Shown: positions 41,134 to 57,054 of the stretch, piece after piece | How positions within the stretch are numbered: the stretch's first letter is position 1 | How the letters are laid out: the number at the start of each line of letters is the position of its first letter | IMG/VR virus record: IMGVR_UViG_3300032288_001980 | Span: 32,001-96,000 of that record | Source: a virus | Length of the DNA: 64,000 nt | Strand: one strand, 5' to 3' | The notes under the pieces: generated by a model | What the model was told of the DNA's origin: nothing | Databases searched by the model: none | The model's input: only the letters and a program-made list of their open reading frames with translations | Position numbers and translations under genes: made by a program

Positions 41134-41432
41134 TTACCAAAATAAAATCTTTGTTCACTCCCACATGGGAGTGGATAAAGCAAGACTATCACGAGTGGCC
41201 TTTTCGATTTTTCATCGAAGTGTTAGCTTGGGCAATTAGCATCGGCAATAGTATTGCAATGATGTTGACAGTACCTAATCCTCCGCTTATAATATTATAT
41301 CCCATATGGATATTTGGTTGTTCACTATATGCGTGGGCCGCTTTTACTCGAGGTAGTTTTGGTATGCTGGCCAATTATGTGCTTCTTACAACTATTGATA
41401 CTATCGGTTTAATTAGGATGATTATTCAATGA
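41130..41432 (+). CDS. Small membrane protein
   Basis: 100 aa with 3-4 hydrophobic segments; TTG start. Confidence 0.7.
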   Translation: MITKIKSLFTPTWEWIKQDYHEWPFRFFIEVLAWAISIGNSIAMMLTVPNPPLIILYPIWIFGCSLYAWAAFTRGSFGMLANYVLLTTIDTIGLIRMIIQ

Positions 41433-44074: not shown

Positions 44075-44103
44075 TTGACACGACCTAAATAAACCTATAT
44101 ACT
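44075..44103 (+). promoter_or_regulatory. Nested sigma70 and late promoters
   Basis: TTGACA-17-TATACT with TAAATA (44086-44091) in the spacer. Confidence 0.7.
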
Positions 44104-44123: not shown

Positions 44124-44864
44124 ATGAAAGACATCGTATTAGACATTGTTAGGCATACCAGCGGACTAGGTATTATTGACAGTCTCAAGGTAACCGGCAC
44201 AGCCGAAGAAACGCAAATTGCGGCAATCGACCAAGACAAAACAGTCATTTTAAATGCTAAACTACACAAACCCGAAGGCGACTTTATTGGCGAATTTGGT
44301 ATGGGTAATTTAGGATTTTTAAATGGCGTTTGTAACTTGTATGCTAAAGACGGTACAACTGTAGAAGTTGTTAAGACTAATCGCAATGGCGCTGAGTTAC
44401 CAGAGACACTAGTGTTCAAAGACCCTGACGGCAATTCAGACAAATATCGTTTGATGAGCAAAGAAGTTATTGACACACAAATTCAAACTGTTAAGTTTAA
44501 AGGGGCTAACTGGGACGTTACATTTGAACCTACTAAGGCCAAAGTTCAAGACCTGGCACAGGCCGCAAGCATTTATTCTAGCATCGAGCCTACATTTACT
44601 ATTCGCACAGAAAATGGCAACTTAGTGTTAGAGCTAGGTAGCGCCAACGGAGGCAGTCACTTTGGTAAGCGCACATTTGCTAACAATGTGGGCGGAACTA
44701 TCAAAGGAGATTTGAGCTTTCCGTTAACTCAGTTCTTAACTATTCTAAAGTTAGGCATGGGCGGTATTTGTGCTGTTAACTTTAGTAACCAAGGTGCTTG
44801 TATGATTAGTGTCGACAGTGGCATTGGTTTATACAACTACATCCTTCCAGCAATGACTCGCTAA
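44124..44864 (+). CDS. Probable sliding clamp (gp45-like)
   Basis: 246 aa beta-rich two-domain pattern, directly after the polymerase; ends YNYILPA; no diagnostic motif. Confidence 0.5.
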   Translation: MKDIVLDIVRHTSGLGIIDSLKVTGTAEETQIAAIDQDKTVILNAKLHKPEGDFIGEFGMGNLGFLNGVCNLYAKDGTTVEVVKTNRNGAELPETLVFKDPDGNSDKYRLMSKEVIDTQIQTVKFKGANWDVTFEPTKAKVQDLAQAASIYSSIEPTFTIRTENGNLVLELGSANGGSHFGKRTFANNVGGTIKGDLSFPLTQFLTILKLGMGGICAVNFSNQGACMISVDSGIGLYNYILPAMTR

Positions 44865-44876
44865 TAGGAGATTTCC

Positions 44877-45098
44877 ATGTACGAAAACCGCATCCGACAT
44901 CTAACTGAAGCACATCACGTTTTAGATAAGCAAATTGCAGACATGGAGAGAAATCACCCTCATGTACAAGAACAAAAACTACATGACTTGAAGAAAAAGA
45001 AATTAGCACTCAAAGACGAAATTGCTAGACTACAAAGACTACAGTACGAACATGATCGGGAAAGTCTCGATCATTGGGATGACGATGAAAGACGATAA
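44877..45098 (+). CDS. YdcH/DUF465-family coiled-coil protein
   Basis: HHVLDKQI...LHDLKKKKLALKDEI. Confidence 0.75.
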   Translation: MYENRIRHLTEAHHVLDKQIADMERNHPHVQEQKLHDLKKKKLALKDEIARLQRLQYEHDRESLDHWDDDERR

Positions 45099-46631
45099 AT
45101 GAGTAAAACAACAGTGGACTTAGATCCGCGCAATAAAGACTATGCAATATTCTTGCCTAGTATCAGTGGATTCTATAATACCTTTATTTCAAAACAACAA
45201 GAAGGCGAATACATTGAAGCTAGTCGTATTCCTGTTGAGTTTGAAAATGGTATCGAAGGTATGAACTTTCTTAATAAAGAAAAGGCATACTTTCATTATA
45301 GTCACGCATTGTATTCGGCAGGCCATGCACAGTTAGACTTGAAAAAGTCTTGGGTGCAGGAAAGCATGGTACAGCAACGTGACAAGCCAAACACATTTAT
45401 TCTTGGCGACTCTGGCGGGTTCCAAATTGGTAAGGGTGTTATTAACTTTGACTGGAAGCACTTCTGGGAAAAGCAAGGCGATGCTGGTTATATCGGAGAA
45501 GCAGATAAAACACGTATGGCTATCCTTAACTGGTTAGAGTTTACTGCTGACTATAGCATGGTACTAGACTTACCTACGTGGGCTAGTAATCCTATTAATC
45601 AACCTCGCACTGGCCTTAAAGACTTTAACGACTGTTTAAAAGGAACTTTGTTTAACAACGATTTCTTCTTAAAGCATCGTCAAGGCAAGACTAAATTCTT
45701 AAACGTTTTACAAGGCGGTAATAACGTTGACGCAGAGATTTGGTATGACGCTGTCAAGCACTATCCTTTCGAGGGTTGGGCTATGGGTGGTAATAACATG
45801 AAGGATGTAGACCTCATGTTACGCCGTTTAATCAAGCTACGTGATGAGAAACTACTAGAGCCGGGCCGCAATGTTATTCACTTTCTGGGTACTAGCAAAC
45901 TTGAACTTGCCTGCTTATTAACGGCCGTTCAACGTAATATTCGTGAGCATGTTAACCCTAATATGAAGGTTACATTTGACTGTGCCAGTCCTTTCTTGGC
46001 CACTGCTTACGGACAAGTTTATACACAACACGTTCATCAAAACGATCGCTTCAGTTACTTGATGACTAAGGCAGTTGATAACAAAAAGCTAAGTGGCAGT
46101 AAAATTCCATGGCCCTGGACCAGCCCAGTTGGTGAACGTATGACTATGGGCGACTTGTGTTACTATGCTCCGGGTATGCTTAACAAGTTAGGCAAGGAAG
46201 GTAAGACCAGCTGGGATAGTTTCAGTTACTTCTTAATGATGGGTCATAATGTTTATCAACACATTGAATCAGTTCAACGTGCTAATGCATTAAATGATGC
46301 GGCCTGTGCAATGCATCAACCAGATCCTAGTGCTTGGCATAAAGTTAAGAAGGGTGCAGATGAGTTTAGCGAGTGGGTTCCACGTAATGTAATTTACATG
46401 AACGAACTTGTTAATCGTGTGTTTACAAGTCAAACTCCTTTTACAGAGTTGGACCGGGCACAAGACTTGTTGGCAAACTTTAATGGCACTAAGACTCTCA
46501 AGAGCACAGTGGCTGGATTTAATAATCTGTTCGAAGTTGAAGATGCTGGTAAGGACAATGACAGTAATATGTTTGATGATCCTGAAACAGTTGAACAAGG
46601 AGAACAACTACTAGAAAGTATTCTCGAGTGA
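45099..46631 (+). CDS. tRNA-guanine-transglycosylase-like protein (DpdA-type DNA deazaguanine transglycosylase candidate)
   Basis: ILGDSGGFQIG TGT signature, MVLDLP, VLQG, IHFLG, FDCAS; co-located with QueD-like, folE and queE. Confidence 0.75.
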   Translation: MSKTTVDLDPRNKDYAIFLPSISGFYNTFISKQQEGEYIEASRIPVEFENGIEGMNFLNKEKAYFHYSHALYSAGHAQLDLKKSWVQESMVQQRDKPNTFILGDSGGFQIGKGVINFDWKHFWEKQGDAGYIGEADKTRMAILNWLEFTADYSMVLDLPTWASNPINQPRTGLKDFNDCLKGTLFNNDFFLKHRQGKTKFLNVLQGGNNVDAEIWYDAVKHYPFEGWAMGGNNMKDVDLMLRRLIKLRDEKLLEPGRNVIHFLGTSKLELACLLTAVQRNIREHVNPNMKVTFDCASPFLATAYGQVYTQHVHQNDRFSYLMTKAVDNKKLSGSKIPWPWTSPVGERMTMGDLCYYAPGMLNKLGKEGKTSWDSFSYFLMMGHNVYQHIESVQRANALNDAACAMHQPDPSAWHKVKKGADEFSEWVPRNVIYMNELVNRVFTSQTPFTELDRAQDLLANFNGTKTLKSTVAGFNNLFEVEDAGKDNDSNMFDDPETVEQGEQLLESILE

Positions 46632-47509
46632 AAAGTCTAATTGTAGGGATGGGATTCGGTAATGCTGTTTACCGACCAATATTAGAAAGTATGGGTCATG
46701 AAATTTTTACAGTTGACCCGTTTTTACCTTCGGATTACAAAACAGTTGATGCGGCAGTTATTGTTAATAAAAGATTTGATACTGTTCATATTTGTACACC
46801 AAATTGGACGCATGAAGATATAGCAAGAACTGTTGCTCACTATACCGGCATTGTGTTTATTGAAAAGCCCGGTGTAATTAATAGTCAAGCATGGTCAAAA
46901 CTTATAGCCGCATATCCTAATACTAGATTTATAATGGTTAAAAATAATCAGTATAGACAAGAAATTAAAGAATTTCAAAGACTAGCTGAATCTAGTGATA
47001 CTGTGTATGTTCGTTGGAATAGTGCAAATCGTATTCCTAATCCAGGCAGTTGGTTCACTACTAAAAAATTGTCCTTTGGCGGAGTTAGCAGAGACTTAAT
47101 GCCTCACATGCTAAGTTATTACTGTGCCTTGACAAATTATCAACAAGGCACTAAACTAAAAGAAACTGCAACTCAAAATTACAGTTTAAAAGATATTACC
47201 AGCACTGACTATGGCATTGTTAATCCTAGTGGAACATATGATGTTGATGACTTTTGTCATTTAGAATTTCAAAATGGTAATACTAAATGGGTGTTAAGTG
47301 CTAATTGGAAAACTAATTTAGATCACGATGACAGTAGCATTTCTTTTAGTATGAAAAATTCCGCAGTAAGACATGAACTAGGACTTTGTCCTGAATCTGC
47401 TTATCGTACAATGATAGAAACTGCTATTAAAAATAAAACAAACGATAAATTTTGGCAGGATCAACTTGCTCAAGATATATGGATTCATCAACAGATAGAA
47501 AATCTATGA
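46628..47509 (+). CDS. Gfo/Idh/MocA-family oxidoreductase
   Basis: IVGMGFG Rossmann loop, ICTPNWTH, VFIEKP. Confidence 0.85.
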   Translation: MKSLIVGMGFGNAVYRPILESMGHEIFTVDPFLPSDYKTVDAAVIVNKRFDTVHICTPNWTHEDIARTVAHYTGIVFIEKPGVINSQAWSKLIAAYPNTRFIMVKNNQYRQEIKEFQRLAESSDTVYVRWNSANRIPNPGSWFTTKKLSFGGVSRDLMPHMLSYYCALTNYQQGTKLKETATQNYSLKDITSTDYGIVNPSGTYDVDDFCHLEFQNGNTKWVLSANWKTNLDHDDSSISFSMKNSAVRHELGLCPESAYRTMIETAIKNKTNDKFWQDQLAQDIWIHQQIENL

Positions 47510-48411
47510 ATAGAGTATTAGCCACAGAAGGCAACGGTATTTTTTATGAAACTGAATATGCTTTGCCCGATTGCGACGAAGATGGTATTCAAGTACGTGC
47601 TGTTATGACTGGTGTTTGTCGCAGTGATATTGATATGATGCAGGGCAACTTTGGTCCGTTGCCATTAGGTATGCAAGGTCACGAGGGACTAGCACAAGTA
47701 GAGAAAGTAGGAAAGTATGTCCAAGACGTCAAACCAGGAGACTACGTCGCAACCAGAGGCGAACCAGCATACGCAGATCGATATACCGTTCGCGCTAGAG
47801 AGTATGTTAAGGTTGCAGAGCCTTTACCAAGAAATATTTTGGAACCAGTGGCTTGCGGCATTAACGTGGTACAGCAACCCATACGCGAAATCGCAGAAAG
47901 ATCAGGACCAGGACGTAGACTATTAATTCTCGGTAGCGGCTTTCTTGCGTGGGTAGCATACAATACAATTAAACTTAACCATTTAGATTTTGAAATAACT
48001 GTAATTGGTTCCAGTAATCAAGAACTTTGGGGTCAAAGACTAACGTCATATTACGGTGGCAAGTTTGATGTTGTCATCGACCTAAGTAATAGAGATGATG
48101 TGTTTACACAAGACATTCTTCACAACGAAGCACTAATTGTATTTGGAGTTGAAAAAACTATTACCACTTCATTTAGCAATTTACTTTGGAAAGCCTGTAC
48201 TATTATGTTTCCTAGTCCCAGGACAGATGGCTTTTATAAATGTATGCAAGATGCCGCATACTGGGTAGAGATGGGTGATATTGTTGTTGACAGCTTCTGG
48301 TCTAAGGAGTATAATAGAGATACAGAGTGGCAACAAGCATTTACAGACGGTGTTACTAGGCCTGCTGGATACTCCAGAGGCTATATTAAATGGAATAATA
48401 ATGGCTCTTGA
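47506..48411 (+). CDS. Medium-chain (GroES-like) alcohol/polyol dehydrogenase
   Basis: GVCRSD, GHEG, PGDYV, LEPVAC, LILGSG; start set at the ATGA overlap 47506. Confidence 0.85.
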   Translation: MNRVLATEGNGIFYETEYALPDCDEDGIQVRAVMTGVCRSDIDMMQGNFGPLPLGMQGHEGLAQVEKVGKYVQDVKPGDYVATRGEPAYADRYTVRAREYVKVAEPLPRNILEPVACGINVVQQPIREIAERSGPGRRLLILGSGFLAWVAYNTIKLNHLDFEITVIGSSNQELWGQRLTSYYGGKFDVVIDLSNRDDVFTQDILHNEALIVFGVEKTITTSFSNLLWKACTIMFPSPRTDGFYKCMQDAAYWVEMGDIVVDSFWSKEYNRDTEWQQAFTDGVTRPAGYSRGYIKWNNNGS

Positions 48412-48934
48412 TACTGTAGAACGACAAGCGGTAACTTATTTTTTCGGTACTGAAGTAGAAAATACTGCTATGAAAGGTGAACCAACTTTGTTTGTAGTTG
48501 GAATTCAACCTGTTGATGTTATTGCTAAACATATCAACAAATACAATTTAAATGCCGGTAGGCCTTGCAGGCATGTTTATCTTGGAACTAGTCAGAGTTT
48601 TCATCCAGGGTCTGTTGACGAATGGCATGACTGGAATAAAATGATTTCCGAATTGTTGGATGCTGGCTACTGGGTTACATTGGACTTTGGTGTAGAGTAC
48701 GCAGAGGAACTACACGAAGATGGCTGGTGCGAAAACAATCGCTTTATTCCAATGATCAGTGTTAAACTTCCATACATTAAGTTATACAATTACAATGCTA
48801 CTCTAAAAATTGATGATGTTACTTGGGGACACAGTAATCCTGGAGTATGGTGTCACAGTTTACACGATTTAATGAACCGTTCAGTCTATACAGACTGGAA
48901 AGACTATGTAGGCGATACGCCTGTTGGAGAATAA
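48401..48934 (+). CDS. Hypothetical protein in the modification cluster
   Basis: FFGTEVENT...TLFVVG...TLKIDD...NPGVWCH; start set at ATG 48401. Confidence 0.75.
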   Translation: MALDTVERQAVTYFFGTEVENTAMKGEPTLFVVGIQPVDVIAKHINKYNLNAGRPCRHVYLGTSQSFHPGSVDEWHDWNKMISELLDAGYWVTLDFGVEYAEELHEDGWCENNRFIPMISVKLPYIKLYNYNATLKIDDVTWGHSNPGVWCHSLHDLMNRSVYTDWKDYVGDTPVGE

Positions 48935-48935
48935 T

Positions 48936-49304
48936 ATGCAACAAAGATGGATTTATGTAAAATTCCAAAAAGAAGGTATTCACAAATACCCAGCGGCTTT
49001 AACCGACCCTAACCTAGCTACAGGAGATCAATATGATGTTTCGTTTCTTGGTTATCCTCATCGCCACATTTTCCATTTCAGGGTGTGGATTACTGTTGTA
49101 CACGATGATAGGGACATCGAGTTCATCCAATTCAAGCGATGGCTCGAAAACCTCTACAACACAGGAACAATCCAACTCGACTACAAGAGTTGCGAAATGA
49201 TGGCCGATGACCTTTACCAACAAATTTCAACAAAGTATCCAGGACGCAGTGTCCGGATCGATATCTCAGAGGATGATGAAAATGGCGCATACATTGAATA
49301 CTAA
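48936..49304 (+). CDS. queD: QueD-like 6-pyruvoyl-tetrahydropterin synthase family protein (T-fold)
   Basis: EGIH, PHRHIFHF (HxH), RDIEFI, SCEMMA, ISEDDENGA; context with folE and queE. Confidence 0.65.
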   Translation: MQQRWIYVKFQKEGIHKYPAALTDPNLATGDQYDVSFLGYPHRHIFHFRVWITVVHDDRDIEFIQFKRWLENLYNTGTIQLDYKSCEMMADDLYQQISTKYPGRSVRIDISEDDENGAYIEY

Positions 49305-49599
49305 GCCTATGATTAAACCCATGATGAGCATGGATAATATTAAGTATGATTTACTTAAAATTGCAGAGCCATATGATGGCGTAATGTACGAAGGTAGTGG
49401 TTACCTTGTAGCAGATTTGTTTCATGCTTATTTGCGTGACCTGCAACGTGATCGTTTGATCTATGGCTATGACTTGCCAGAAGAACAATACAAAGAAAAC
49501 TCTGTTACGTTTGATGCTATTATCCAGCTGACAGAAGACCGTAGTCCCAAGAAGCTGAAAATTCACGTAGGCGTGTATAAGAGTGCTTGGAAAAACTAA
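49207..49599 (+). CDS. Hypothetical protein (true start probably downstream)
   Basis: ORF fills the gap between the QueD-like and GT genes. Confidence 0.6.
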   Translation: MTFTNKFQQSIQDAVSGSISQRMMKMAHTLNTKPMIKPMMSMDNIKYDLLKIAEPYDGVMYEGSGYLVADLFHAYLRDLQRDRLIYGYDLPEEQYKENSVTFDAIIQLTEDRSPKKLKIHVGVYKSAWKN

Positions 49600-50678
49600 T
49601 GGCTAATGTATTTTTAGTTGATCTTGAACCTGTAGAAACAAGGTACACGGGTCAGTGGAAATCTCATGTACCTGAACTACTAAGAAAGGCTGGCCACAAT
49701 GTTCAAATTTTATCTGGTCCTACGGATATTCCTAGTGCAACCACTCCTGGTGCTTTTCTTAACTTTGGCGGCACTAACATCTATAAGTCTTTACAAGTTG
49801 AAGGAATGGGTCGTTTATTCTGCTCCGGAGCAATTAAGCCTGGCGATCATTTTTTGTTTACTGATGCTTGGCATCCTGGCATCATAAACTTAAAATACAT
49901 GAGTGAACTGTTACAGATACCTGTAACTATTCACGCATTGTGGCATGCTGGTAGTTATGATCCACAGGACTTTTTAGGTCGCCTTATTGGCGATGCTAAA
50001 TGGGTAAGGCATGCAGAGATTAGCTTCTTTAGTGCCATTGATCACAACTACTTTGCTACACAATTTCACATTCAAATGTTTGCCGATGTTTTTGCTGATG
50101 GCGCCGACTGGTGGATCAAAGAACAGCTAATGACTGGTAAAATTGTACGCAGTGGCTGGCCTATGGAGTACTTAGACGAAACCCTGTCTACGTTTAAAGA
50201 TATTATCAAAGAAGATATTATTTTATTCCCTCATCGTATTGCTCCAGAAAAACAATTAAACATTTTTAAAGACTTGGCCGACGCTATGCCTGAGTACCAA
50301 TGGATAGTTGCACAAGAACATCAATTAACTAAACAACAGTATCACGAACTGTTAGGTCGTAGTAGAATTGTGTTTAGTGCTAACTTACAAGAAACTCTGG
50401 GCATTAGTTGTTACGAAGCATTGTGTGTTAATGCTTTCCCAATGGTACCAAATAGACTTAGCTATACAGAAATGTATCCCAATGTGTTTAAGTATGATTC
50501 CCGTTGGACTGAAAGTTTTGACAGTTACTTAAACTACAAAGACAGGATGATTGAATATATTAGAAAGACCATGAACGAAATGAAAGGTCAAGGGCATTTA
50601 GAATCTATTGTGCAGTCTAAGAATATTATTAAAAATAATTTCTTTACAGCATCTGCTATCTTAGGAAATATAAAATGA
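49599..50678 (+). CDS. GT-B glycosyltransferase
   Basis: FPHRIAPEKQL and SANLQETLGISCYEA (ExFG-like GT4 motif), PNRLSYTEM. Confidence 0.8.
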   Translation: MANVFLVDLEPVETRYTGQWKSHVPELLRKAGHNVQILSGPTDIPSATTPGAFLNFGGTNIYKSLQVEGMGRLFCSGAIKPGDHFLFTDAWHPGIINLKYMSELLQIPVTIHALWHAGSYDPQDFLGRLIGDAKWVRHAEISFFSAIDHNYFATQFHIQMFADVFADGADWWIKEQLMTGKIVRSGWPMEYLDETLSTFKDIIKEDIILFPHRIAPEKQLNIFKDLADAMPEYQWIVAQEHQLTKQQYHELLGRSRIVFSANLQETLGISCYEALCVNAFPMVPNRLSYTEMYPNVFKYDSRWTESFDSYLNYKDRMIEYIRKTMNEMKGQGHLESIVQSKNIIKNNFFTASAILGNIK

Positions 50679-50917
50679 TTGATAAGGAAATAACTTTGTT
50701 AACTTTAGAACTTAAATCTTATGTTGATCACATAAATTCCGTTATGGAAAAATTACATAAGAAAAATTGTGAAGTCAGAATCAGTTATAAAGATGCCAGT
50801 GGTGAAAAGGCGCCCAGTATAGAACTGTGGCGTGTTATTGAGCACAATGATTATCTTAAAAGTTCTGCTCCTGCAGATTCACCCAAAGACTTTATAACAG
50901 AACTATCAAAATTCTAA
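50675..50917 (+). CDS. Hypothetical protein
   Basis: 80 aa, ATGA-coupled. Confidence 0.7.
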   Translation: MIDKEITLLTLELKSYVDHINSVMEKLHKKNCEVRISYKDASGEKAPSIELWRVIEHNDYLKSSAPADSPKDFITELSKF

Positions 50918-50921
50918 CAAG

Positions 50922-51392
50922 ATGATATTCAGTAAAGCAAGAGAACTAAAAGAGCAGGGCTATAAGATTGGCATTACTTTTAGCCAATTTGATATGTTAC
51001 ATGCTGGCCATATTGCTATGTTGGCCGAAGCCAAAACTCACTGCGATTATCTAATTGCCGGACTGCAAAATAATGCACAATGGGATCGCCCTGAAAAGAA
51101 CGAACCAATTCAAAGTATTGTAGAACGGCAAATCCAATTGGCTGCTGTGCGCTATGTGGATGAAATTGTTGTGTATAATACCGAACAAGATTTAGTAGAC
51201 CTATTGCTTATTTTACCTTTAGATGTTAGAATACTTGGTGTAGAATATGCACACAGAGATTTTACTGGTAAAGACGAATGTCATGCCCGTGGAATTGAAT
51301 TGATCTTTAATGGTAGAGATCACAGCTTCAGTAGTAGCAGTTTGCGTAGGCGTGTAGCAGAAGCTGAAAATTTTAGAAATACTGTTAAATAA
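50922..51392 (+). CDS. Cytidylyltransferase (TagD/glycerol-3-phosphate CTase-like)
   Basis: FDMLHAGH (HxGH), IVERQIQL...YVDEI, RDHSFSSSSLR. Confidence 0.85.
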   Translation: MIFSKARELKEQGYKIGITFSQFDMLHAGHIAMLAEAKTHCDYLIAGLQNNAQWDRPEKNEPIQSIVERQIQLAAVRYVDEIVVYNTEQDLVDLLLILPLDVRILGVEYAHRDFTGKDECHARGIELIFNGRDHSFSSSSLRRRVAEAENFRNTVK

Positions 51393-51451
51393 GATTGCTA
51401 CACAAAGGTAGCAAATTTCAAATTTAACATCCGCGTAAGGAAGGATACACT

Positions 51452-52132
51452 ATGTCATATAACAAGACGAAAACCGACCCAGATTTGGGTAAACAAGTAC
51501 ACGAACATTTAGTTAAAATGGGCGTTGAGACTCCTACATTTCATACATCACTAGACCGCAAAGATAAAATTGCAGAGATTGAAAAGCATTTCAGTCATAT
51601 TATGCAAGTTCTTGGTTTAGATTTAGAAGATGATAGCCTTATGGAAACACCCAAGCGTGTTGCCAAGATGTATGTCAACGAAATCTTCTGGGGTCTAGAC
51701 TATGATGCTTTCCCAAAATGCACTACAGTAGACAACAAGATGAAGTATGACGAGATGGTCATTGAACGCAATGTCAATGTTCAAAGCAACTGCGAACATC
51801 ACTTTGTTGTGATTGATGGTGTGGCCACTGTTGCTTATATTCCCAAGCAGAAGGTTCTAGGCCTAAGTAAGATTAATCGTATTGTAGAATACTTTAGCAA
51901 GCGTCCTCAAATTCAAGAACGTCTAACAGAGCAGATTTATCATGCACTAAGCTACATTCTAGAAACAGATAACGTAGCAGTGGTTATTGATGCACAGCAT
52001 TATTGTGTGAAGTCGCGTGGCGTTGAAGATACTGGCAGTTCAACTGTTACCAGCAAGCTAGGCGGCTGTTTTAAAAATGAACCTGCTGTTCGAGCAGAGT
52101 TTATGAACATTGTTAATAACTGTGTGAGATAA
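51452..52132 (+). CDS. folE: GTP cyclohydrolase I
   Basis: ETPKRVAKMY, SNCEHHF, GLSKINRIV, QIQERLTEQI, HYCVKSRGV. Confidence 0.95.
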   Translation: MSYNKTKTDPDLGKQVHEHLVKMGVETPTFHTSLDRKDKIAEIEKHFSHIMQVLGLDLEDDSLMETPKRVAKMYVNEIFWGLDYDAFPKCTTVDNKMKYDEMVIERNVNVQSNCEHHFVVIDGVATVAYIPKQKVLGLSKINRIVEYFSKRPQIQERLTEQIYHALSYILETDNVAVVIDAQHYCVKSRGVEDTGSSTVTSKLGGCFKNEPAVRAEFMNIVNNCVR

Positions 52133-52134
52133 AA

Positions 52135-52644
52135 ATGGCTGACCCGATAGATGACTTAGCAGACATCTCATTTGAGTGGTCTAGCGATGATGCTACGATG
52201 ACAACTATTGACTTGTCAGGACTTACAGCCAGTGGCACTTGTCCTACTACTATGGCATCCACATATCCTTCTGGCAATGTAACCATTGCGTCTAGTAGTA
52301 CTACCAGTACCACCCTTGGTCCAATATACAGTATCGGTAGTGTCGGTAATTTAGGTATTGGTGCCCAGGGATCTACAATTAACAGTGGCTATACAATTAG
52401 TACTAGCCAAGGATGGAATGGCACGTTTGCTGGGGATCAACCTAAATTATCCATAGATGCCAAAGAAGAGGGAGTGTTTTTTAAAACAGAAAAACATAAC
52501 GTTAATTGGGATGAACTAATTGACGATATTAACTCTATTAAACGTGCGTTTTTGGCTATGAACGCTAATGACGAACTAATGGAAAAGTATCCAGAAATTC
52601 GTGACATGTTGTCCGAGTGGCTAATAAGAGGACTAAGCAAATGA
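52135..52644 (+). CDS. Hypothetical protein with an S/T/G-rich segment
   Basis: 169 aa in the operon. Confidence 0.7.
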   Translation: MADPIDDLADISFEWSSDDATMTTIDLSGLTASGTCPTTMASTYPSGNVTIASSSTTSTTLGPIYSIGSVGNLGIGAQGSTINSGYTISTSQGWNGTFAGDQPKLSIDAKEEGVFFKTEKHNVNWDELIDDINSIKRAFLAMNANDELMEKYPEIRDMLSEWLIRGLSK

Positions 52645-53228
52645 AAAAGATTTATATAGACGACAAACAATTAAAAAGTTACGTAGCTAATCTGGCTAGG
52701 CAAATTACTATCTCTAGATGGAGGCCTGATTATATAGTGGGTCTAACCAGGGGTGGACTAGTGCCTGCAACAATGCTAAGTCATTGGTTACAAGTACCTA
52801 TGCATACTCTTAATGTTAGTTTAAGAGACGATTCGGGTATGGGCCCTGAAAGTAATCTTTGGATGGCCGAAGATGCCTTTGGCTATCCTAAGCCCGAGCG
52901 TTTTGTAGAAGATGAAAACGATATAGGTGCTGTGCTAGATGCGGCGGGCTCTCTGCTAGAAGAAGGCGACACATCAAAAAAGATACTTATTGTCGATGAT
53001 ATCAACGACAGCGGTGCAACATTTAATTGGATTAAAGAAGATTGGCAAAGCGGTTGCTTGCCAAATGATCCTGATTGGAATTATGTTTGGCATCACAATG
53101 TACGTTTTGCTGTTGTAGTCAACAATGACTCTAGCGAATTTAAAAATGTCGACTACTCTGCACTTAACATAAACAAAGCAGAAGAAGATTCGTGGGTGGT
53201 ATTTCCATGGGAGAACTGGTGGGAATGA
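52641..53228 (+). CDS. Purine phosphoribosyltransferase (Gpt-like)
   Basis: IVGLTRGGLVPA, ILIVDDINDSGAT PRPP motif, WVVFPWE. Confidence 0.88.
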   Translation: MKKIYIDDKQLKSYVANLARQITISRWRPDYIVGLTRGGLVPATMLSHWLQVPMHTLNVSLRDDSGMGPESNLWMAEDAFGYPKPERFVEDENDIGAVLDAAGSLLEEGDTSKKILIVDDINDSGATFNWIKEDWQSGCLPNDPDWNYVWHHNVRFAVVVNNDSSEFKNVDYSALNINKAEEDSWVVFPWENWWE

Positions 53229-53413
53229 ACAATAATGTGTTACCAGGATCTAAGTGGTTTAGTTCCGATTGTCAAATATTTAAGGTAGAAATGGTCTACG
53301 AAAACAGTGCCGGAACATGGGTTACATATATTAATACAAAAACAGATCAAGTATACGACTGTTTAATTGAAGCATTTTTAAATAGATTTACAGAAAAGGC
53401 CAATGAAGGATGA
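53225..53413 (+). CDS. Small hypothetical protein
   Basis: ATGA-coupled 62 aa ORF. Confidence 0.65.
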   Translation: MNNNVLPGSKWFSSDCQIFKVEMVYENSAGTWVTYINTKTDQVYDCLIEAFLNRFTEKANEG

Positions 53414-53808
53414 TAATGAAAGATGATAAAATTTTTTCAGGTATTCCTGATAGTAAAGAAGATAGTACTGCCCCGTGGGACGATATGGTTTGGGAAGATT
53501 TTCACGTGGCAGTATACAAGGACAAATATCCTGTAAATCATGGGCACTTGCTGTTTGTGCCTAAATACAATACTGTTAGTATCCTAATGGATGCTTTTGA
53601 AGATGCTGTTAATCACGGTAAGAAAATGGTCAAAGACGGACAATGGGACGGTTTCAATATTGGTATGAATTATGGTTCTGCGTCTGGACAAACAGTTAAT
53701 TGGCCACATGTACATTTAATCCCTCGCTTTCATGGAGATTGTGAGGATCCAACCGGCGGCGTTAGGGGTGTTATTCCTGGCAAAGCCAATTATAAAAAGG
53801 CACCATAA
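53410..53808 (+). CDS. HIT-family hydrolase
   Basis: DKYPVNHGHLLFVPK, GFNIGMN...GQTVNWPHVHLIPR. Confidence 0.9.
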   Translation: MIMKDDKIFSGIPDSKEDSTAPWDDMVWEDFHVAVYKDKYPVNHGHLLFVPKYNTVSILMDAFEDAVNHGKKMVKDGQWDGFNIGMNYGSASGQTVNWPHVHLIPRFHGDCEDPTGGVRGVIPGKANYKKAP

Positions 53809-54038
53809 TGAGCGAAACATTCAATCTCAATACAAGGACTACAGTTGTTACTGACACACCTTCGTTTAAAATGACTATCAAAGTCAATGACATCAAAAGT
53901 CCTCCTAACCTAAAAGCCATTTATTTTATTAGAGAAGAATTTGACCTTAAAGGCGAACAAATTAATTCTAGTACATATGAATTCTTTCTTACACCAGATG
54001 AATTAAAATCTGTTGCTACAGCATTGGCTACAGTTTGA
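53808..54038 (+). CDS. Hypothetical protein
   Basis: 76 aa, coupled. Confidence 0.65.
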   Translation: MSETFNLNTRTTVVTDTPSFKMTIKVNDIKSPPNLKAIYFIREEFDLKGEQINSSTYEFFLTPDELKSVATALATV

Positions 54039-54063
54039 CTATTGCTAATTTATATTGTATAAT
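54035..54063 (+). promoter_or_regulatory. Sigma70-type promoter (leaderless)
   Basis: TTGACT-17-TATAAT, ATG 5 nt downstream. Confidence 0.75.
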
Positions 54064-54068
54064 GCAGT

Positions 54069-54452
54069 ATGGAAATCAATGATACTGTCGATCTCGCCGC
54101 CGATATTAAAAATTGTGCATGGATAGTGGAAAAAGTTCGCACTAACAAAACCTATGCACAAAATCTTTATGCGGCCTTGTGTAATATAATTTGGTTTAAG
54201 ACCAATGACTTTTGGCCGGCACTAACTGGTAACAATGAATGGAGTTGCAGTTGGCGATGGGCAGGAGGTTTTGTTGCTGAATTGGAGGATCAAGGCGGTG
54301 ATTACATGGATTGGTATTGCAGTGGTATCCGTGGTGACAAAGATGAAAATAAAGAGTTATACGTTGGTGAAGGTTATGTAACCAACGAAGTAGCAGATGA
54401 TTTAGCTAAAATTGGATGGAAATGGAAAGAATATGAAGATCAAGGTATCTGA
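54069..54452 (+). CDS. Hypothetical phage protein
   Basis: YAQNLYAALCN...WSCSWRWAGG...DYMDWYCSG motif. Confidence 0.8.
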   Translation: MEINDTVDLAADIKNCAWIVEKVRTNKTYAQNLYAALCNIIWFKTNDFWPALTGNNEWSCSWRWAGGFVAELEDQGGDYMDWYCSGIRGDKDENKELYVGEGYVTNEVADDLAKIGWKWKEYEDQGI

Positions 54453-55305
54453 GAAATTTTACAGTTTACAAGGCGAAGGAAGGTTTGTAGGAGTACCCAG
54501 TGTATTTTTACGAACCTTTGGTTGTAATTTTACCTGTGCAGGCTTTGGCTGTAAGCCTGGAGAAAAAAGTACAGGTGCAGACGAAATAGCACAAGTTGTT
54601 CATATGTACAACAAGTTCGAAGATTTGCCATTGGTAGAAACAGGCTGTGACAGTTATGCTAGTTGGCATCCGGACTTTAAGCACTTGAGCCCTAATTATG
54701 AAACTAGTGAGCTAGTTGATGCAATGCTGGCACTGACACCAAACGGTAAATGGGTGCAGGACAATGGCAATGATGTGCATCTTGTTATTACAGGCGGAGA
54801 GCCTTTGCTGGGTTGGCAACGTGCTTACGAAGAACTAATCAGTAATCCTCGTATGCGTGACTTACGCAATATTACATTTGAAACTAATGGTACTCAAAAA
54901 TTACAAAAAGGATTTAAAGACTTTTTGCAAGCATGGCAACAACCAGCACTAGGACAATCACAGACACAGTTTGTGACTTTTAGTGTTAGTGCCAAACTAA
55001 GTGCCAGCGGCGAGACATGGGAAGATGCTATTAGGCCTGAAGTAGTATGCGAATACGCCAGCATTGGTCATACTTATCTTAAGTTTGTTGTTGAAACAGA
55101 TGAGCATATCGAAGAAGCTAAACGTGCTACAAAAGAATTTAGGGATGCAGGATTTACAGGAGTAGTATATCTAATGCCGCAGGGAGGCATTGTTGCTCCG
55201 TATGACGCAAATAAAATTAGAATTGCTAATATCTGTGCGGAACAAGGATGGAACTACAGTCCCCGTTTACACGTTGACTTATGGGGTAACGGATGGGGCA
55301 AATGA
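54433..55305 (+). CDS. queE: 7-carboxy-7-deazaguanine synthase
   Basis: EKFYSLQGEGRFVGVPSVFLRTFGCNFTC...GCDS, ITGGEP, TFETNG, PRLHVDLW. Confidence 0.9.
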   Translation: MKIKVSEKFYSLQGEGRFVGVPSVFLRTFGCNFTCAGFGCKPGEKSTGADEIAQVVHMYNKFEDLPLVETGCDSYASWHPDFKHLSPNYETSELVDAMLALTPNGKWVQDNGNDVHLVITGGEPLLGWQRAYEELISNPRMRDLRNITFETNGTQKLQKGFKDFLQAWQQPALGQSQTQFVTFSVSAKLSASGETWEDAIRPEVVCEYASIGHTYLKFVVETDEHIEEAKRATKEFRDAGFTGVVYLMPQGGIVAPYDANKIRIANICAEQGWNYSPRLHVDLWGNGWGK

Positions 55306-55529: not shown

Positions 55530-55758
55530 AGTCCAATCATACGATTACTTTTGGGAACGAGCAGATTGGACTTACAAATTTGCACTAATTCCAAAACGTT
55601 GCGCCAAAACCAATAAATGGATGTGGATGCAAACAGTAGCACAGGCCCATAGAATGTATACTGGACCAGGCGATCCAATTCATGAATATAGATATATTGA
55701 CAAAAATGAGTTCTTTATGTTACAATTACAGGGAGGACTGAAAAATGGCATTCGTTGA
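55510..55758 (+). CDS. Hypothetical protein
   Basis: 82 aa, Trp-rich. Confidence 0.65.
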   Translation: MMYQDSEVQSYDYFWERADWTYKFALIPKRCAKTNKWMWMQTVAQAHRMYTGPGDPIHEYRYIDKNEFFMLQLQGGLKNGIR

Positions 55759-56073: not shown

Positions 56074-57054
56074 ATGACTTATATCCTAGTCGATGCTAGT
56101 AATATGTTTTTTCGTGCTCGCCACGTTGTTAGGGGAGACGACCCTGAAACTAAAGTAGGCATGGCTTACCATATTATGTTTGCCAGTATTAATAAGGTAT
56201 GGCGAGACTTCCAGGGTAAACACGTTATCTTCTGTTTCGAAGGTCGCTCGTGGCGCAAAGATGTTTATCCTGCTTATAAGGCCAATCGTGCGGCTGCTCG
56301 TGCCGCACTAACTGAAAGAGAAGCCGAAGAAGATAAAATGTTTTGGGAAGCCTTTGATCAGTTCAAACAGTTTCTAACAGAAAAGACTAACTGCACTACA
56401 CTTCGACACGAAAATTGTGAAGCAGATGATTTTATTGCTCGCTGGATTCAAAATCATCCCGAAGCCGAACATGTGATAGTCAGTAGCGACAGCGACTTTT
56501 ATCAGTTACTGGCTACCAATGTAAAACAGTACAACGGTATTACCAAAGAAACAATTACTGTTGATGGTATTTTCGACGACAAAGGTCGCCCCGTACTAGA
56601 TAAAAAAACTAAAACTCCCAAAGTAGTCGAAGATCCGCAATGGCTTCTTTTCGAGAAGTGTATGCGTGGCGATACTAGCGATAATGTCTTTAGTGCTTAT
56701 CCAGGTGTGCGTGAAAAAGGTACCAAAAATAAAGTTGGCCTGCGTGAAGCCTTTGCCGACAGAACTGACAAAGGCTATAATTGGAACAATCTCATGCTTC
56801 AGCGTTGGACCGACCACGACGGTAAAGAACACAGGGTTCGTGATCGATATGAAGAAAATAAACGCATTATCGACTTGACACAACAGCCCGATAACATTAA
56901 ACTAGCACTGGATACAACTATTGCAGAATGCTTGCAAAAAGAGCCTAAACGACAAGTAGGTGTAGAGTTTTTGAGATTCTGTGGTAAATGGGACTTACAA
57001 GAAATTGCCAAGCGACCAGATGATCATGTAAATTATTTGAATGCAAAATATTAA
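56074..57054 (+). CDS. 5'-3' exonuclease / T4 RNase H-like flap nuclease
   Basis: ILVDASN, FEGRSWRK, EADD, SSDSDFYQ, GDTSDNV. Confidence 0.88.
   Translation: MTYILVDASNMFFRARHVVRGDDPETKVGMAYHIMFASINKVWRDFQGKHVIFCFEGRSWRKDVYPAYKANRAAARAALTEREAEEDKMFWEAFDQFKQFLTEKTNCTTLRHENCEADDFIARWIQNHPEAEHVIVSSDSDFYQLLATNVKQYNGITKETITVDGIFDDKGRPVLDKKTKTPKVVEDPQWLLFEKCMRGDTSDNVFSAYPGVREKGTKNKVGLREAFADRTDKGYNWNNLMLQRWTDHDGKEHRVRDRYEENKRIIDLTQQPDNIKLALDTTIAECLQKEPKRQVGVEFLRFCGKWDLQEIAKRPDDHVNYLNAKY

What the first reader, a model, noticed from the sequence alone, without database searches (positions are those of the whole stretch)
45099..55305. 7-deazaguanine pathway interleaved with sugar/polyol-activating enzymes and a glycosyltransferase: a candidate new DNA hypermodification
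Seen, just downstream of the polymerase and clamp genes: TGT/DpdA-like (DSGGFQ), Gfo/Idh/MocA oxidoreductase, MDR dehydrogenase, an unknown protein, QueD-like, GT-B glycosyltransferase, TagD-like cytidylyltransferase, FolE, PRTase, HIT and QueE. Known: FolE, QueD and QueE make 7-carboxy-7-deazaguanine (CDG), and phage DpdA enzymes insert deazaguanines into DNA as anti-restriction marks. QueC, which makes preQ0, is not in this window. Inference: the redox pair and CTase could build a CDP-sugar or CDP-polyol that the GT attaches to a deazaguanine (or another base), giving a glycosylated or alditol-linked base. I do not know of such a deazaguanine derivative in phage DNA.
Basis: partly seen in the sequence, partly recalled or inferred. 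Interest (0 to 1): 0.82.

Follow-up and report, generated by a model that had tools for sequence, protein, structure and literature searches.

The report
Deazaguanine DNA module with sugar transferase
An uncultured giant phage carries, next to its DNA polymerase, the gene set that swaps guanine in DNA for 7-deazaguanine, with a sugar-transferring enzyme built into that set; its DNA may therefore hold a sugar-bearing purine that I found in no paper and that could be tested in phages already in culture.

Summary
The gene list holds, with three corrections.

- **"QueD-like" gene:** the 126-aa protein is DpdL, the proposed 7-carboxy-7-deazaguanine decarboxylase of the phiST-type pathway. It has the LxxxHRHxF motif and is 56% identical to ACP17 DpdL.
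- **QueD and QueC:** a canonical QueD, paired with a YhhQ-like transporter, lies outside the window. So does a divergent QueC-like gene.
- **"Clamp":** this call is unverified.

The 510-aa protein has no Pfam hit but folds as a tRNA-guanine transglycosylase (Z 19.5) and keeps the catalytic Asp motifs. The 363-aa protein is a GT4-type GT-B glycosyltransferase with an EX7E motif.

In 35 related IMG/VR loci with enough flank:

| Gene | Loci |
|---|---|
| DpdL | 35 |
| Glycosyltransferase | 34 |
| Unknown 176-aa protein | 30 |
| Nucleotidyltransferase | 8 |
| Redox pair | 6 |

The nucleotidyltransferase and the redox pair occur separately, so both are optional. Other lineages place different sugar-nucleotide enzymes beside other glycosyltransferase subtypes.

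The cultured relative PA5oct has the core genes, and its DNA resists enzymes that cut at G sites. The chemistry of that modification is unsolved.

Best reading: a dDG-type modification that is further glycosylated. This is inferred, not shown. This scan has flagged the same system in more than 200 other genomes.

The parts
44124..44864 (+). Conserved gene between the polymerase and the module.
   Evidence: Matches phrog_12062 (unknown function, 4e-42) with no Pfam hit. The PA5oct homologue is annotated as a structural protein. Found in 79 of 80 related loci.
44877..45098 (+). Small DUF465 protein.
   Evidence: PF04325, 2.2e-13. Found in 21 of 80 loci.
45099..46631 (+). TGT-fold transglycosylase (DpdA-like, 510 aa). 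Proposed to exchange guanine in DNA for the deazapurine.
   Evidence: AF2 pLDDT 84.8. Foldseek to Z. mobilis TGT at E 3.5e-8. VIA Z 19.5, rmsd 4.6, about 300 aligned residues. Motifs DSGGFQ at 104, LD157, LQGG and FD294C line up with E. coli Tgt D89, D143 and D264. D104, D157 and D294 are invariant in 27 homologues. It has no CxCxxC Zn motif and no PF01702 hit.
46628..47509 (+). Gfo/Idh/MocA NAD(P) sugar oxidoreductase, an optional accessory gene.
   Evidence: PF01408, 27.6 bits. Found in 6 of 35 full loci, always with the MDR gene and always between the DpdA-like gene and U176.
47506..48411 (+). Zn-dependent MDR dehydrogenase, an optional accessory gene. The ORF opens at 47452; the likely start is the ATG at 47506.
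   Evidence: ADH_N, 39 bits. GVCRSD and GHE Zn motifs are visible in the translation. Found in 6 of 35 loci.
48287..48315 (+). Perfect sigma-70 consensus promoter (TTGACA-17-TATAAT) inside the 3' end of the MDR gene, 86 nt before the U176 start.
   Evidence: 12 of 12 consensus positions match. The total promoter count in the region is not above the shuffled expectation, so function is inferred from position only.
48401..48934 (+). The ORF opens at 48275; the likely start is the ATG at 48401.
   Evidence: Found in 30 of 35 full loci, in ACP17 directly upstream of its DpdA, and in PA5oct 27 kb away. The family has at least 7370 proteins, all unnamed. No Pfam, PHROG or PDB hit. The Atlas gives only weak glycoside-hydrolase-like leads, at most 0.87.
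48924..49304 (+). DpdL, a QueD-paralogous T-fold protein and the proposed CDG decarboxylase that yields 7-deazaguanine.
   Evidence: LGYPHRHIF fits the DpdL signature LxxxHRHxF defined in PMC10516641. tblastn gives 56% identity to ACP17 DpdL and 33% to phiST gp040 (E 3e-6). Found in 35 of 35 loci. Similarity to the phage's own canonical QueD is only weak (hhalign probability 10%).
49207..49599 (+). Small conserved ORF of unknown function. The real start probably lies after the DpdL stop.
   Evidence: Homologues follow DpdL directly in 18 of 80 loci. No family hit.
49587..50678 (+). GT4-type GT-B glycosyltransferase, proposed to add a sugar to the deazapurine.
   Evidence: AF2 pLDDT 90.5. VIA Z 24.9 to sucrose-phosphate synthase, 23.5 to MshA and 22.9 to BshA. 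EX7E lies at 269-277, with E277, R217 and K222 invariant in 28 homologues. Found in 34 of 35 loci. The nearest viral model is the ACP17 glycosyltransferase, TM 0.85-0.90.
50675..50917 (+). Small ORF between the glycosyltransferase and the nucleotidyltransferase.
   Evidence: Only a weak hit to phrog_7099. Found in 2 of 80 loci.
50922..51392 (+). Small sugar-phosphate or polyol-phosphate nucleotidyltransferase of the cytidylyltransferase superfamily, an optional accessory gene.
   Evidence: PF01467, 39 bits. phrog_7878, 2e-27. rfaE_dom_II 67 bits and TagD 48 bits, both below their cut-offs. Found in 8 of 35 loci.
51452..52132 (+). GTP cyclohydrolase I (FolE), the first step to 7-deazaguanines.
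   Evidence: PF01227, 1.3e-63. NF006824, 332 bits. It is 66% identical to ACP17 FolE but only about 34% identical to the FolE of the closest relatives.
52135..52644 (+). 169-aa ORF of unknown function.
   Evidence: No family hit. Found in 3 of 80 loci.
52617..53228 (+). Type I phosphoribosyltransferase of the 6-oxopurine (Gpt/Hpt) type.
   Evidence: PF00156, 48 bits. Xanthine PRTase NF006613, 39 bits. PRPP motif VDDINDSGAT. Found in 24 of 35 loci.
53410..53808 (+). HIT-family nucleotide hydrolase or transferase (HinT-like).
   Evidence: PF01230, 38 bits. HinT model, 47 bits. Found in 18 of 35 loci.
54412..55305 (+). QueE-like radical SAM enzyme (CDG synthase). The likely start is the ATG at 54433.
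   Evidence: phrog_2076, 6e-52 over the whole length. QueE models match the N-terminal QGEG region. The cluster motif reads CNFTCAGFGC. Found in 28 of 35 loci.

Best explanation
This is the DNA-modification module of a large clade of mostly uncultured giant phages, distantly related to Pseudomonas phage PA5oct.

**Proposed pathway**
1. FolE (in the window), a canonical QueD (elsewhere in the genome) and QueE make 7-carboxy-7-deazaguanine from GTP.
2. DpdL converts it, most likely by decarboxylation, to 7-deazaguanine.
3. A very divergent TGT-fold transglycosylase swaps guanines in phage DNA for that base.
4. A GT4-type glycosyltransferase that is locked to these genes then adds a sugar from a nucleotide sugar to the deazapurine, either in DNA or just before insertion. 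The result would be a sugar-bearing purine that protects the DNA from host nucleases.

**Accessory genes**
- The Gfo/Idh/MocA plus MDR pair and the small nucleotidyltransferase are optional, lineage-specific add-ons. Most likely they alter or supply the sugar donor.
- The 6-oxopurine PRTase most likely recycles the released guanine.

**Status of each step**
- Steps 1 to 3 are inferred from homology, fold and context.
- Step 4 and the accessory roles are inferred from gene linkage only.
For: **Protein identities**
- TGT fold with conserved catalytic Asp motifs.
- DpdL signature and homology to phiST and ACP17 DpdL. phiST-type phages carry dDG in their DNA (PMC10516641).
- FolE and QueE in the cluster. 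Canonical QueD in the genome.
- GT-B fold with EX7E and invariant R217, K222 and E277.

**Gene linkage**
- In 35 loci with at least 9 kb downstream: DpdL 35, glycosyltransferase 34, U176 30, QueE 28, FolE 27.
- DpdL and the glycosyltransferase are adjacent or near each other in the PA5oct group, ACP17, Phosso, Xanthomonas BUDD and X1, Burkholderia BCSR5 and Synechococcus BUCT-ZZ01.
- Glycosyltransferase subtype changes with the neighbouring sugar gene. An NAD-epimerase/dehydratase is present in 8 of 10 type B loci and 0 of 32 others (Fisher p 4e-7, not corrected for kinship). A nucleotidyltransferase-mannose-6-phosphate isomerase (MPI) fusion occurs only with type C.

**Context**
- The order polymerase, conserved gene, transglycosylase parallels the polymerase-clamp-DpdA order of phage 9g.
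[quoted passage not shown] The authors infer a modified G (PMC12191111).
- The record has no ThyA-type hydroxymethylase, so there is no hydroxymethyl-pyrimidine acceptor for the glycosyltransferase.
Against: - No chemistry is known for any member. DpdL activity has never been shown, and heterologous DpdL plus DpdA gave no dDG (PMC10516641).
- 7-deazaguanine has no obvious hydroxyl or amine at C7 to take a sugar, so the linkage would have to be unusual.
- The closest structural matches of the glycosyltransferase use small acceptors (sugar phosphates, inositol phosphate, malate), not nucleic acid. T4 DNA glucosyltransferases are not among the listed matches.
- The transglycosylase lacks the TGT zinc motif. 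It shows only weak profile similarity to the ACP17 DpdA (57%) and none of note to DpdA1 or phiST DpdA3.
- On the tree, the link between glycosyltransferase type and epimerase rests on only 3 independent contrasts (p at least 0.25).
- A QueC-like protein and a YhhQ-like transporter in the genome leave room for another base.
Confidence: 0.5

Rival explanations
1. Plain phiST-type modification. The module only puts 7-deazaguanine (dDG) into DNA. The glycosyltransferase, nucleotidyltransferase and redox pair act on something else, such as a virion or host-surface glycan or a small metabolite, and merely share the operon.
For: - dDG is the only product linked by experiment to DpdL-bearing phages.
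- 7-deazaguanine offers no ready acceptor group.
- The structural neighbours of the glycosyltransferase use small-molecule acceptors.
- The redox pair and nucleotidyltransferase are optional.
- The same genome holds other sugar-related and radical SAM clusters, noted by earlier readers of this scan.
Against: - The glycosyltransferase sits with DpdL in 34 of 35 loci and in seven unrelated groups of cultured phages, often directly adjacent. DpdL phages of the phiST type lack it. That degree of linkage is not expected of a passenger gene.
- It lies in the replication gene block, not among structural or lysis genes.
Confidence: 0.22
2. Nucleotide-pool route. The 6-oxopurine PRTase joins the deazapurine base to PRPP. 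The nucleotide is reduced and phosphorylated, and the phage polymerase incorporates it during replication. HIT and MazG-type enzymes shape the pool. The TGT-fold protein has a lesser or different role.
For: - A Gpt/Hpt-type PRTase with an intact PRPP motif occurs in 24 of 35 loci and HIT in 18 of 35, both inside the module.
- A MazG pyrophosphatase lies near QueD in this genome, and one lies inside the phiST cluster.
- An ADG nucleoside was seen in cells infected by CP220 (PMC10516641).
- From general knowledge: 7-deaza-dGTP is a good polymerase substrate, and PRTases do this step in tubercidin and toyocamycin biosynthesis.
Against: - The TGT-fold protein is in every locus (it was the search query), while PRTase and HIT are missing from a third or more of the loci. 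In PA5oct only a weak 24% match lies in the cluster, and ACP17 has no match there.
- Every known deazaguanine DNA system uses a transglycosylase.
- Salvage of released guanine explains the PRTase equally well.
Confidence: 0.1
3. A different base is inserted. The phage uses preQ0 or ADG, either imported through its YhhQ-like transporter or made by its QueC-like enzyme. DpdL has another role.
For: - The QueD gene is followed directly by a Vut_1/YhhQ-family transporter (PF02592, 8.9e-22).
- A 211-aa PP-loop protein with the QueC C-terminal Cys motif passes the Pfam QueC cut-off at 36.6 bits.
Against: - The QueC-like protein scores 27 bits against TIGR00364, whose cut-off is 150, and only its last 55 residues match. 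It lies 90 kb away among cupin and oxygenase-like genes.
- DpdL is in 35 of 35 loci.
- No QueF, ArcS or Gat-QueC was seen in the module.
Confidence: 0.08
4. The TGT-fold enzyme modifies tRNA, of host or phage, rather than DNA.
For: - The protein's motifs resemble bacterial tRNA-guanine transglycosylase more than they resemble known DpdA subfamilies.
Against: - The gene sits between the DNA polymerase and RNase H in all relatives.
- The window holds no tRNA genes.
- DpdL partners mark DNA in phiST.
- PA5oct DNA resists G-site restriction enzymes.
- The zinc motif that TGT uses is absent.
Confidence: 0.05

Closest known systems
DpdL/DpdA3 dDG system of Cellulophaga phage phiST (Cui, Hutinet et al., NAR 2023, PMC10516641)
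   Same: - QueC-free pathway with FolE, QueD, QueE and a DpdL that carries the LxxxHRHxF motif.
- A distant TGT-like transglycosylase placed next to the replication genes.
- A MazG-type gene in the genome.
   Different: - phiST has no homologue of the glycosyltransferase or U176 at the thresholds used, and no PRTase, HIT or sugar genes are annotated in its cluster.
- Its DpdA3 is 259 aa and shows no significant profile match to the 510-aa protein here (hhalign probability 6%).
Acidovorax phage ACP17 cluster (U176, DpdA, glycosyltransferase, DpdL, QueE, with QueD and FolE upstream)
   Same: - The same core genes are adjacent: U176 33%, glycosyltransferase 32%, DpdL 56% and FolE 66% identity.
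- Its 424-aa DpdA aligns motif for motif with the 510-aa protein (hhalign probability 57%).
   Different: - T4-like phage of 156 kb.
- No redox pair, nucleotidyltransferase, PRTase or HIT in the cluster.
- I found no analysis of its DNA. DpdL plus DpdA gave no dDG in E. coli.
Pseudomonas phage PA5oct (Wroclawvirus) and relatives such as MIJ3, Paride and Callisto
   Same: - Syntenic block: polymerase, conserved gene, TGT-fold protein (37%), glycosyltransferase (42%), DpdL (58%), QueE, RNase H.
- The DNA resists G-site restriction enzymes and is targeted by END nucleases that sense modified DNA (PMC12191111).
   Different: - No redox pair, nucleotidyltransferase, FolE or HIT in the block.
- U176 is encoded 27 kb away.
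- The modified base has not been identified.
Phage 9g / DpdA1 dG+ system
   Same: The order polymerase, clamp, DpdA, FolE, QueD, QueE next to the replication genes.
   Different: - It uses Gat-QueC to make archaeosine base.
- No DpdL and no glycosyltransferase.
- No detectable similarity between DpdA1 and the protein here (hhalign probability 0.1%).
Sugar decoration of nucleic-acid bases: T4 alpha- and beta-glucosyltransferases on 5-hydroxymethylcytosine, and vertebrate glycosylated queuosine in tRNA (from general knowledge)
   Same: A GT-B enzyme adds a sugar from a nucleotide sugar to a modified base. Glycosylated queuosine shows that a 7-deazaguanine derivative can carry a sugar.
   Different: - Those acceptors have a hydroxyl group; 7-deazaguanine has none.
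- No hydroxymethylase is present in the record.
- The T4 enzymes are not among the listed structural matches.

Membership tests
tRNA-guanine transglycosylase / DpdA superfamily | TGT-type TIM-barrel fold | tested here: met
   VIA Z 19.5, rmsd 4.6, 289-300 aligned residues to Z. mobilis and T. maritima TGT. Foldseek E 3.5e-8, probability 1.00.
tRNA-guanine transglycosylase / DpdA superfamily | Catalytic aspartates (E. coli Tgt D89 in DSGGFQ, D264 in FDC) and base-binding D143 | tested here: met
   DSGGFQ at 104, LD157 and FD294C. hhalign places FD294C on the FD264C of E. coli Tgt. All three Asp are invariant in 27 homologues.
tRNA-guanine transglycosylase / DpdA superfamily | Zinc site CxCxxC...H | tested here: not met
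   No CxCxxC in the 510-aa protein; E. coli Tgt has CDCYTC at 302.
tRNA-guanine transglycosylase / DpdA superfamily | Match to the Pfam TGT model PF01702 | tested here: not met
   No hit at E 0.01 for the protein and none at E 1 in the whole record; the control genomes all match.
DpdA subfamilies DpdA1 and DpdA3 | Sequence or profile similarity to a named member | tested here: inconclusive
   hhalign probability: 9g DpdA1 0.1%, phiST DpdA3 6%, ACP17 DpdA 57% with the motifs aligned. The templates were single sequences, so sensitivity is low.
DpdA (functional definition) | Exchanges guanine in DNA for a 7-deazaguanine | not testable with these tools
   Only context is available: the replication block, the DpdL partner, and the restriction resistance of PA5oct DNA.
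DpdL (QueD paralogue, proposed CDG decarboxylase) | LxxxHRHxF in place of the QueD motif CxxxHGH | tested here: met
   LGYPHRHIF at 42-50. phiST gp040 has LSLNHRHLF and ACP17 has LGSPHRHLF. The definition is in PMC10516641.
DpdL (QueD paralogue, proposed CDG decarboxylase) | Sequence homology to phiST and ACP17 DpdL | tested here: met
   tblastn: ACP17 56% (3e-37); phiST, phi13:1 and phi19:2 33% (3e-6).
DpdL (QueD paralogue, proposed CDG decarboxylase) | Occurs with DpdA, FolE, QueD and QueE but without QueC | tested here: inconclusive
   FolE, QueD, QueE and the DpdA-like gene are present. There is no equivalog-level QueC, but a QueC-like PP-loop protein exists and the record is only about 52% complete.
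GT4-type retaining GT-B glycosyltransferases | GT-B two-Rossmann fold | tested here: met
   VIA Z 24.9 (6kih), 23.5 (MshA) and 22.9 (BshA) over 300-316 residues.
GT4-type retaining GT-B glycosyltransferases | EX7E motif and basic residues that bind the diphosphate | tested here: met
   ETLGISCYE at 269-277. E277, R217 and K222 are invariant in 28 homologues; position 269 is E in 23 and D in 5.
GT4-type retaining GT-B glycosyltransferases | Match to the Pfam Glycos_transf_1 models | tested here: not met
   No glycosyltransferase Pfam or NCBIfam hit at E 0.01.
T4-type DNA glucosyltransferase systems | A hydroxymethyl-pyrimidine acceptor made by a ThyA-like hydroxymethylase | tested here: not met
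   No PF00303 match in the 184-kb record; only ThyX is present. The record is incomplete.
QueC (preQ0 synthase) | Full-length match at equivalog level | tested here: not met
   The 211-aa protein scores 27 bits on TIGR00364 (cut-off 150). Its Pfam QueC score of 36.6 bits covers only model positions 155-208.
TagD glycerol-3-phosphate cytidylyltransferase | Equivalog-level match | tested here: not met
   TIGR01518 scores 48 bits (cut-off 165). rfaE_dom_II scores higher at 67 bits (cut-off 181.5). Only the superfamily domain TIGR00125 passes, at 44.4 against 27.7.

The most novel reading that the evidence does not exclude
The virion DNA of this phage clade, including the cultured phages PA5oct, ACP17, Phosso and BUCT-ZZ01, carries a glycosylated 7-deazaguanine. 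That would be the first sugar-bearing purine in any DNA. The sugar may be joined by a C-glycosidic bond to the electron-rich pyrrole carbon that DpdL frees by decarboxylation. The sugar differs between lineages according to swappable donor cassettes: nucleotidyltransferase, the Gfo/MDR pair, UDP-sugar dehydrogenase, epimerase/dehydratase, and a nucleotidyltransferase-isomerase fusion.
Probability: 0.4. Interest if true: 0.9.

Novelty: new variant of a known kind. Interest (0 to 1): 0.72.

Why it matters
Eight 7-deazaguanine derivatives are known in viral DNA, and none carries a sugar (PMC10516641). All known sugar-decorated DNA bases are pyrimidines. A glycosylated deazapurine would be a new class of DNA base.

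- **Unsolved biology:** it would explain the unidentified G modification of PA5oct-type therapeutic phages and why END-type nucleases sense them.
- **Tools:** it would add a new transglycosylase subfamily and a nucleic-acid-directed GT4 enzyme to the toolbox.
- **Scale:** the TGT-fold family has at least 7,900 proteins and U176 at least 7,300, none of them named. More than 570 IMG/VR contigs encode the module. The mark would therefore be common in aquatic giant phages.
- **Testability:** several members are in culture, so the question can be tested directly.

Tried and rejected
- **Nucleotide similarity:** the 10-kb region has no match in the phage collection.
- **Sequence searches for the TGT-fold protein, the glycosyltransferase, DpdL and U176:** PDB searches with single sequences or profiles gave nothing usable.
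- **DpdL against Pfam PTPS:** only 2 of 24 members matched, at E 0.03. hhalign to the phage's own QueD gave probability 10%. The DpdL call therefore rests on the published motif and on tblastn to named DpdL genes.
- **U176:**
  - No Pfam, PHROG, NCBIfam or PDB hit.
  - No fused longer forms (weak evidence).
  - One Atlas query gave nothing and the other gave glycoside-hydrolase-like leads below 0.9.
- **T4 alpha- and beta-glucosyltransferases:** they do not appear among the listed structural matches of the glycosyltransferase. This does not exclude kinship.
- **Bacterial genomes:** only 13 contigs, all from metagenome bins and probably phage contigs, encode the TGT-fold family.
- **Link between glycosyltransferase type B and the epimerase:** corrected on the tree, it has too few independent contrasts to be significant.
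- **Redox pair and nucleotidyltransferase as one linked pathway:** rejected, because 4 loci have both, 4 have only the nucleotidyltransferase and 2 have only the redox pair.

Full report
**Where the window lies.** The window is bases 32001-96000 of a 183.9-kb IMG/VR phage record that CheckV rates about 52% complete. The region 45099-55305 is a run of + strand ORFs with overlapping or nearly abutting ends. It lies between a B-family DNA polymerase (41429-44071; phrog_262, 4e-198) and an RNase H-type exonuclease (56074-57054). It has no nucleotide-level match in the phage collection.

**Checking the gene list.**
- Family models confirm seven genes: Gfo/Idh/MocA (46628-47509), an MDR Zn-dehydrogenase (47506-48411), a small nucleotidyltransferase (50922-51392), FolE (51452-52132), a Gpt/Hpt-type phosphoribosyltransferase (52617-53228), a HIT protein (53410-53808) and QueE (54412-55305).
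- The nucleotidyltransferase scores higher against the RfaE domain II heptose-1-phosphate adenylyltransferase model than against TagD. Both scores are below the cut-offs, so only the superfamily is settled.
I tested them separately, as follows.

**The 510-aa protein.**
- It belongs to a family of at least 7,900 unnamed proteins without Pfam domains. A search of 1.8 billion representatives gave 943 clusters.
- An AlphaFold model built on 27 homologues (pLDDT 84.8) matches tRNA-guanine transglycosylases: Foldseek E 3.5e-8, VIA Z 19.5 over about 300 residues.
- The motifs DSGGFQ (104), LD157, LQGG, GWAMGG and FD294C line up with DSGGFQ (89), FD143EC, IQGS, GYAVGG and FD264C of E. coli Tgt. The three aspartates are invariant.
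- The TGT zinc motif is absent, and the Pfam TGT model finds nothing in the whole record.
- Profile comparison gives 57% probability, with aligned motifs, to the 424-aa DpdA of Acidovorax phage ACP17. It gives 6% to phiST DpdA3 and 0.1% to phage 9g DpdA1.
- It is therefore a TGT-superfamily enzyme of a very divergent subfamily. Its action on DNA is inferred.

**The "QueD-like" protein is DpdL.**
- Cui, Hutinet et al. (PMC10516641) define DpdL as a QueD paralogue in which CxxxHGH has become LxxxHRHxF. They propose that it decarboxylates CDG to 7-deazaguanine. It occurs in phages that have FolE, QueD, QueE and a DpdA but no QueC.
- The window protein reads LGYPHRHIF at residues 42-50. It is 56% identical to ACP17 DpdL and 33% identical to phiST gp040.
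- phiST, phi13:1 and phi19:2 carry dDG in their DNA.
- A canonical QueD (PF01242, 52 bits; phrog_2389, 3e-35) lies about 23 kb upstream of the window's first base. A YhhQ/Vut_1-type transporter follows it directly, and a MazG pyrophosphatase lies 3 kb further on.
- A 211-aa PP-loop protein with the QueC Cys motif lies at about 138 kb. It falls far short of the QueC equivalog score.

**The 363-aa protein.** It is a GT-B enzyme of the GT4 type.
- The model has pLDDT 90.5. VIA gives Z 24.9 to sucrose-phosphate synthase, 23.5 to MshA and 22.9 to BshA.
- It has an EX7E motif at 269-277, and R217, K222 and E277 are invariant.
- Its nearest viral model is the ACP17 glycosyltransferase.

**Comparative genomics.**
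- A pattern scan found 571 IMG/VR contigs that encode the TGT-fold protein, and 80 loci were fetched.
- The gene order is conserved: polymerase, conserved gene, TGT-fold, U176, DpdL, glycosyltransferase, FolE, PRTase, HIT, QueE, RNase H.
- Counts among the 35 loci with at least 9 kb downstream:

| Gene | Loci (of 35) |
|---|---|
| DpdL | 35 |
| Glycosyltransferase | 34 |
| U176 | 30 |
| QueE | 28 |
| FolE | 27 |
| PRTase | 24 |
| HIT | 18 |
| Nucleotidyltransferase | 8 |
| Gfo/MDR pair | 6 |

- The nucleotidyltransferase and the Gfo/MDR pair are separable: 4 loci have both, 4 have only the nucleotidyltransferase and 2 have only the redox pair.
- Among cultured phages, DpdL and the glycosyltransferase lie together in the PA5oct group, ACP17, Sinorhizobium phage Phosso, Xanthomonas BUDD and X1, Burkholderia BCSR5 and Synechococcus BUCT-ZZ01. 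The phiST group and a few others have DpdL without the glycosyltransferase.
- ACP17 has the run U176, DpdA, glycosyltransferase, DpdL, QueE.

**Do the sugar genes feed the glycosyltransferase?**
- Other lineages place different sugar-nucleotide enzymes directly beside it:
  - a UDP-glucose/GDP-mannose dehydrogenase after the nucleotidyltransferase (9 loci);
  - an NAD-epimerase/dehydratase after the glycosyltransferase (9 loci);
  - a nucleotidyltransferase-mannose-6-phosphate-isomerase fusion before it (3 loci).
- Glycosyltransferase subtype goes with these genes:
  - The epimerase is in 8 of 10 loci with the divergent type B enzyme and in none of 32 others (Fisher p 4e-7).
  - The fusion occurs only with type C.
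  - The Gfo/MDR pair occurs only with type A, the type in this window.
- On a tree of the TGT-fold protein these patterns reduce to about 3 independent contrasts. All go the same way, but they are too few for significance.
- Of the 28 type A loci with at least 5 kb of flank, 22 have no nucleotidyltransferase and 22 have no redox pair, yet their glycosyltransferase is about as similar to the window's (49-65% identity) as in the loci that carry them.
- My reading: the glycosyltransferase uses a nucleotide sugar, usually the host's. Some lineages, including this one, add donor-supplying or donor-altering genes.

[quoted passage not shown] The authors infer a modified G from this and from the QueE and PTPS genes. 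The base was not identified. I found no paper on a glycosylated deazaguanine in DNA, and no later work on DpdL.

**What remains open.**
- The sugar acceptor is unknown, and 7-deazaguanine offers no hydroxyl group.
- DpdL activity is unproven.
- The structural neighbours of the glycosyltransferase act on small molecules. Glycosylation of the free base or of a nucleotide, or an unrelated role, cannot be excluded.
- The PRTase fits either salvage of the released guanine or a nucleotide-pool route.
- U176 is conserved and unexplained.
- The record has no ThyA-type hydroxymethylase, so a T4-like hydroxymethyl-pyrimidine acceptor is unlikely.

**Earlier notes of this scan.** The same association (DpdA-like, DpdL-like, glycosyltransferase) has been flagged in more than 200 other genomes, with the same closest known system. 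I reached DpdL independently, through the paper. One note mentions bacterial islands. For this TGT-fold subfamily I found only 13 contigs, all from metagenome bins.

**Verdict.**
- The system is a new variant of the known 7-deazaguanine DNA-modification kind.
- The prediction of a sugar-bearing purine is untested but can be tested directly in cultured phages.

Noticed in passing
L084:1447-2586 (G000:C1 about 8.65-9.8 kb, outside the window): A canonical QueD (PF01242, 52 bits) is followed 12 nt later by a YhhQ/Vut_1-family membrane transporter (PF02592, 8.9e-22). This is the family that imports queuosine precursors in bacteria. A phage-encoded precursor importer beside QueD suggests salvage of deazapurine bases.
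   Followed up: partly
L001:1471-2106 (- strand; G000:C1 about 138 kb): A 211-aa PP-loop protein with SGGMDS and a C-x8-C-x2-C-x2-C tail like QueC (Pfam QueC 36.6 bits, TIGR00364 only 27 bits). It lies between cupin and 2OG-oxygenase-like genes and an HNH protein. It may be a QueC paralogue with another substrate.
   Followed up: partly
window 51452-52132: FolE looks displaced. It is only about 34% identical to the FolE of the closest relatives, including L007, whose TGT-fold protein is 97% identical. It is 66% identical to ACP17 FolE and scores 332 bits on the bacterial FolE model.
   Followed up: partly
window 41265-41293, 44075-44103, 48287-48315, 54035-54063, 55697-55726: Perfect or near-perfect TTGACA-17/18-TATAAT promoters sit just upstream of the polymerase, the conserved gene, U176, the ORF before QueE, and the gene before RNase H. 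This suggests that host sigma-70 reads the module as several units. The one at 48287 lies inside the MDR gene.
   Followed up: no
window 54412-55305: The radical SAM cysteine motif of QueE reads C-x3-C-x4-C (CNFTCAGFGC) instead of the usual C-x3-C-x2-C. The Pfam Radical_SAM score is only 19 bits, although the PHROG QueE family matches along the whole length.
   Followed up: no
L016:9338-10528 and L080:9998-11170: In two relatives a sulfate-permease-family gene (PF00916, 5e-46) is inserted between the Gfo/Idh/MocA and MDR genes of the same module.
   Followed up: no
L023:15768-18563 and six other loci: A protein of about 930 aa with a subtilase (S8) domain sits inside the module, between the PRTase and QueE, in seven related loci.
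   Followed up: no
Its PA5oct homologue was found in virions by mass spectrometry, according to the record's annotation.
   Followed up: partly
L102:1318-1767 and L103 (G000:C1:101514-102122): A MazG-like pyrophosphatase (phrog_229, 2.5e-46) lies 3 kb downstream of QueD. A ThyX thymidylate synthase (193 bits) lies just past the window's end. No ThyA-type enzyme is in the record.
   Followed up: no
L089-L101 (genome contigs): All 13 'bacterial' or 'archaeal' genome hits for the TGT-fold protein are contigs of metagenome bins, one of them 335 kb long. They are probably giant-phage contigs binned with cells by mistake.
   Followed up: no
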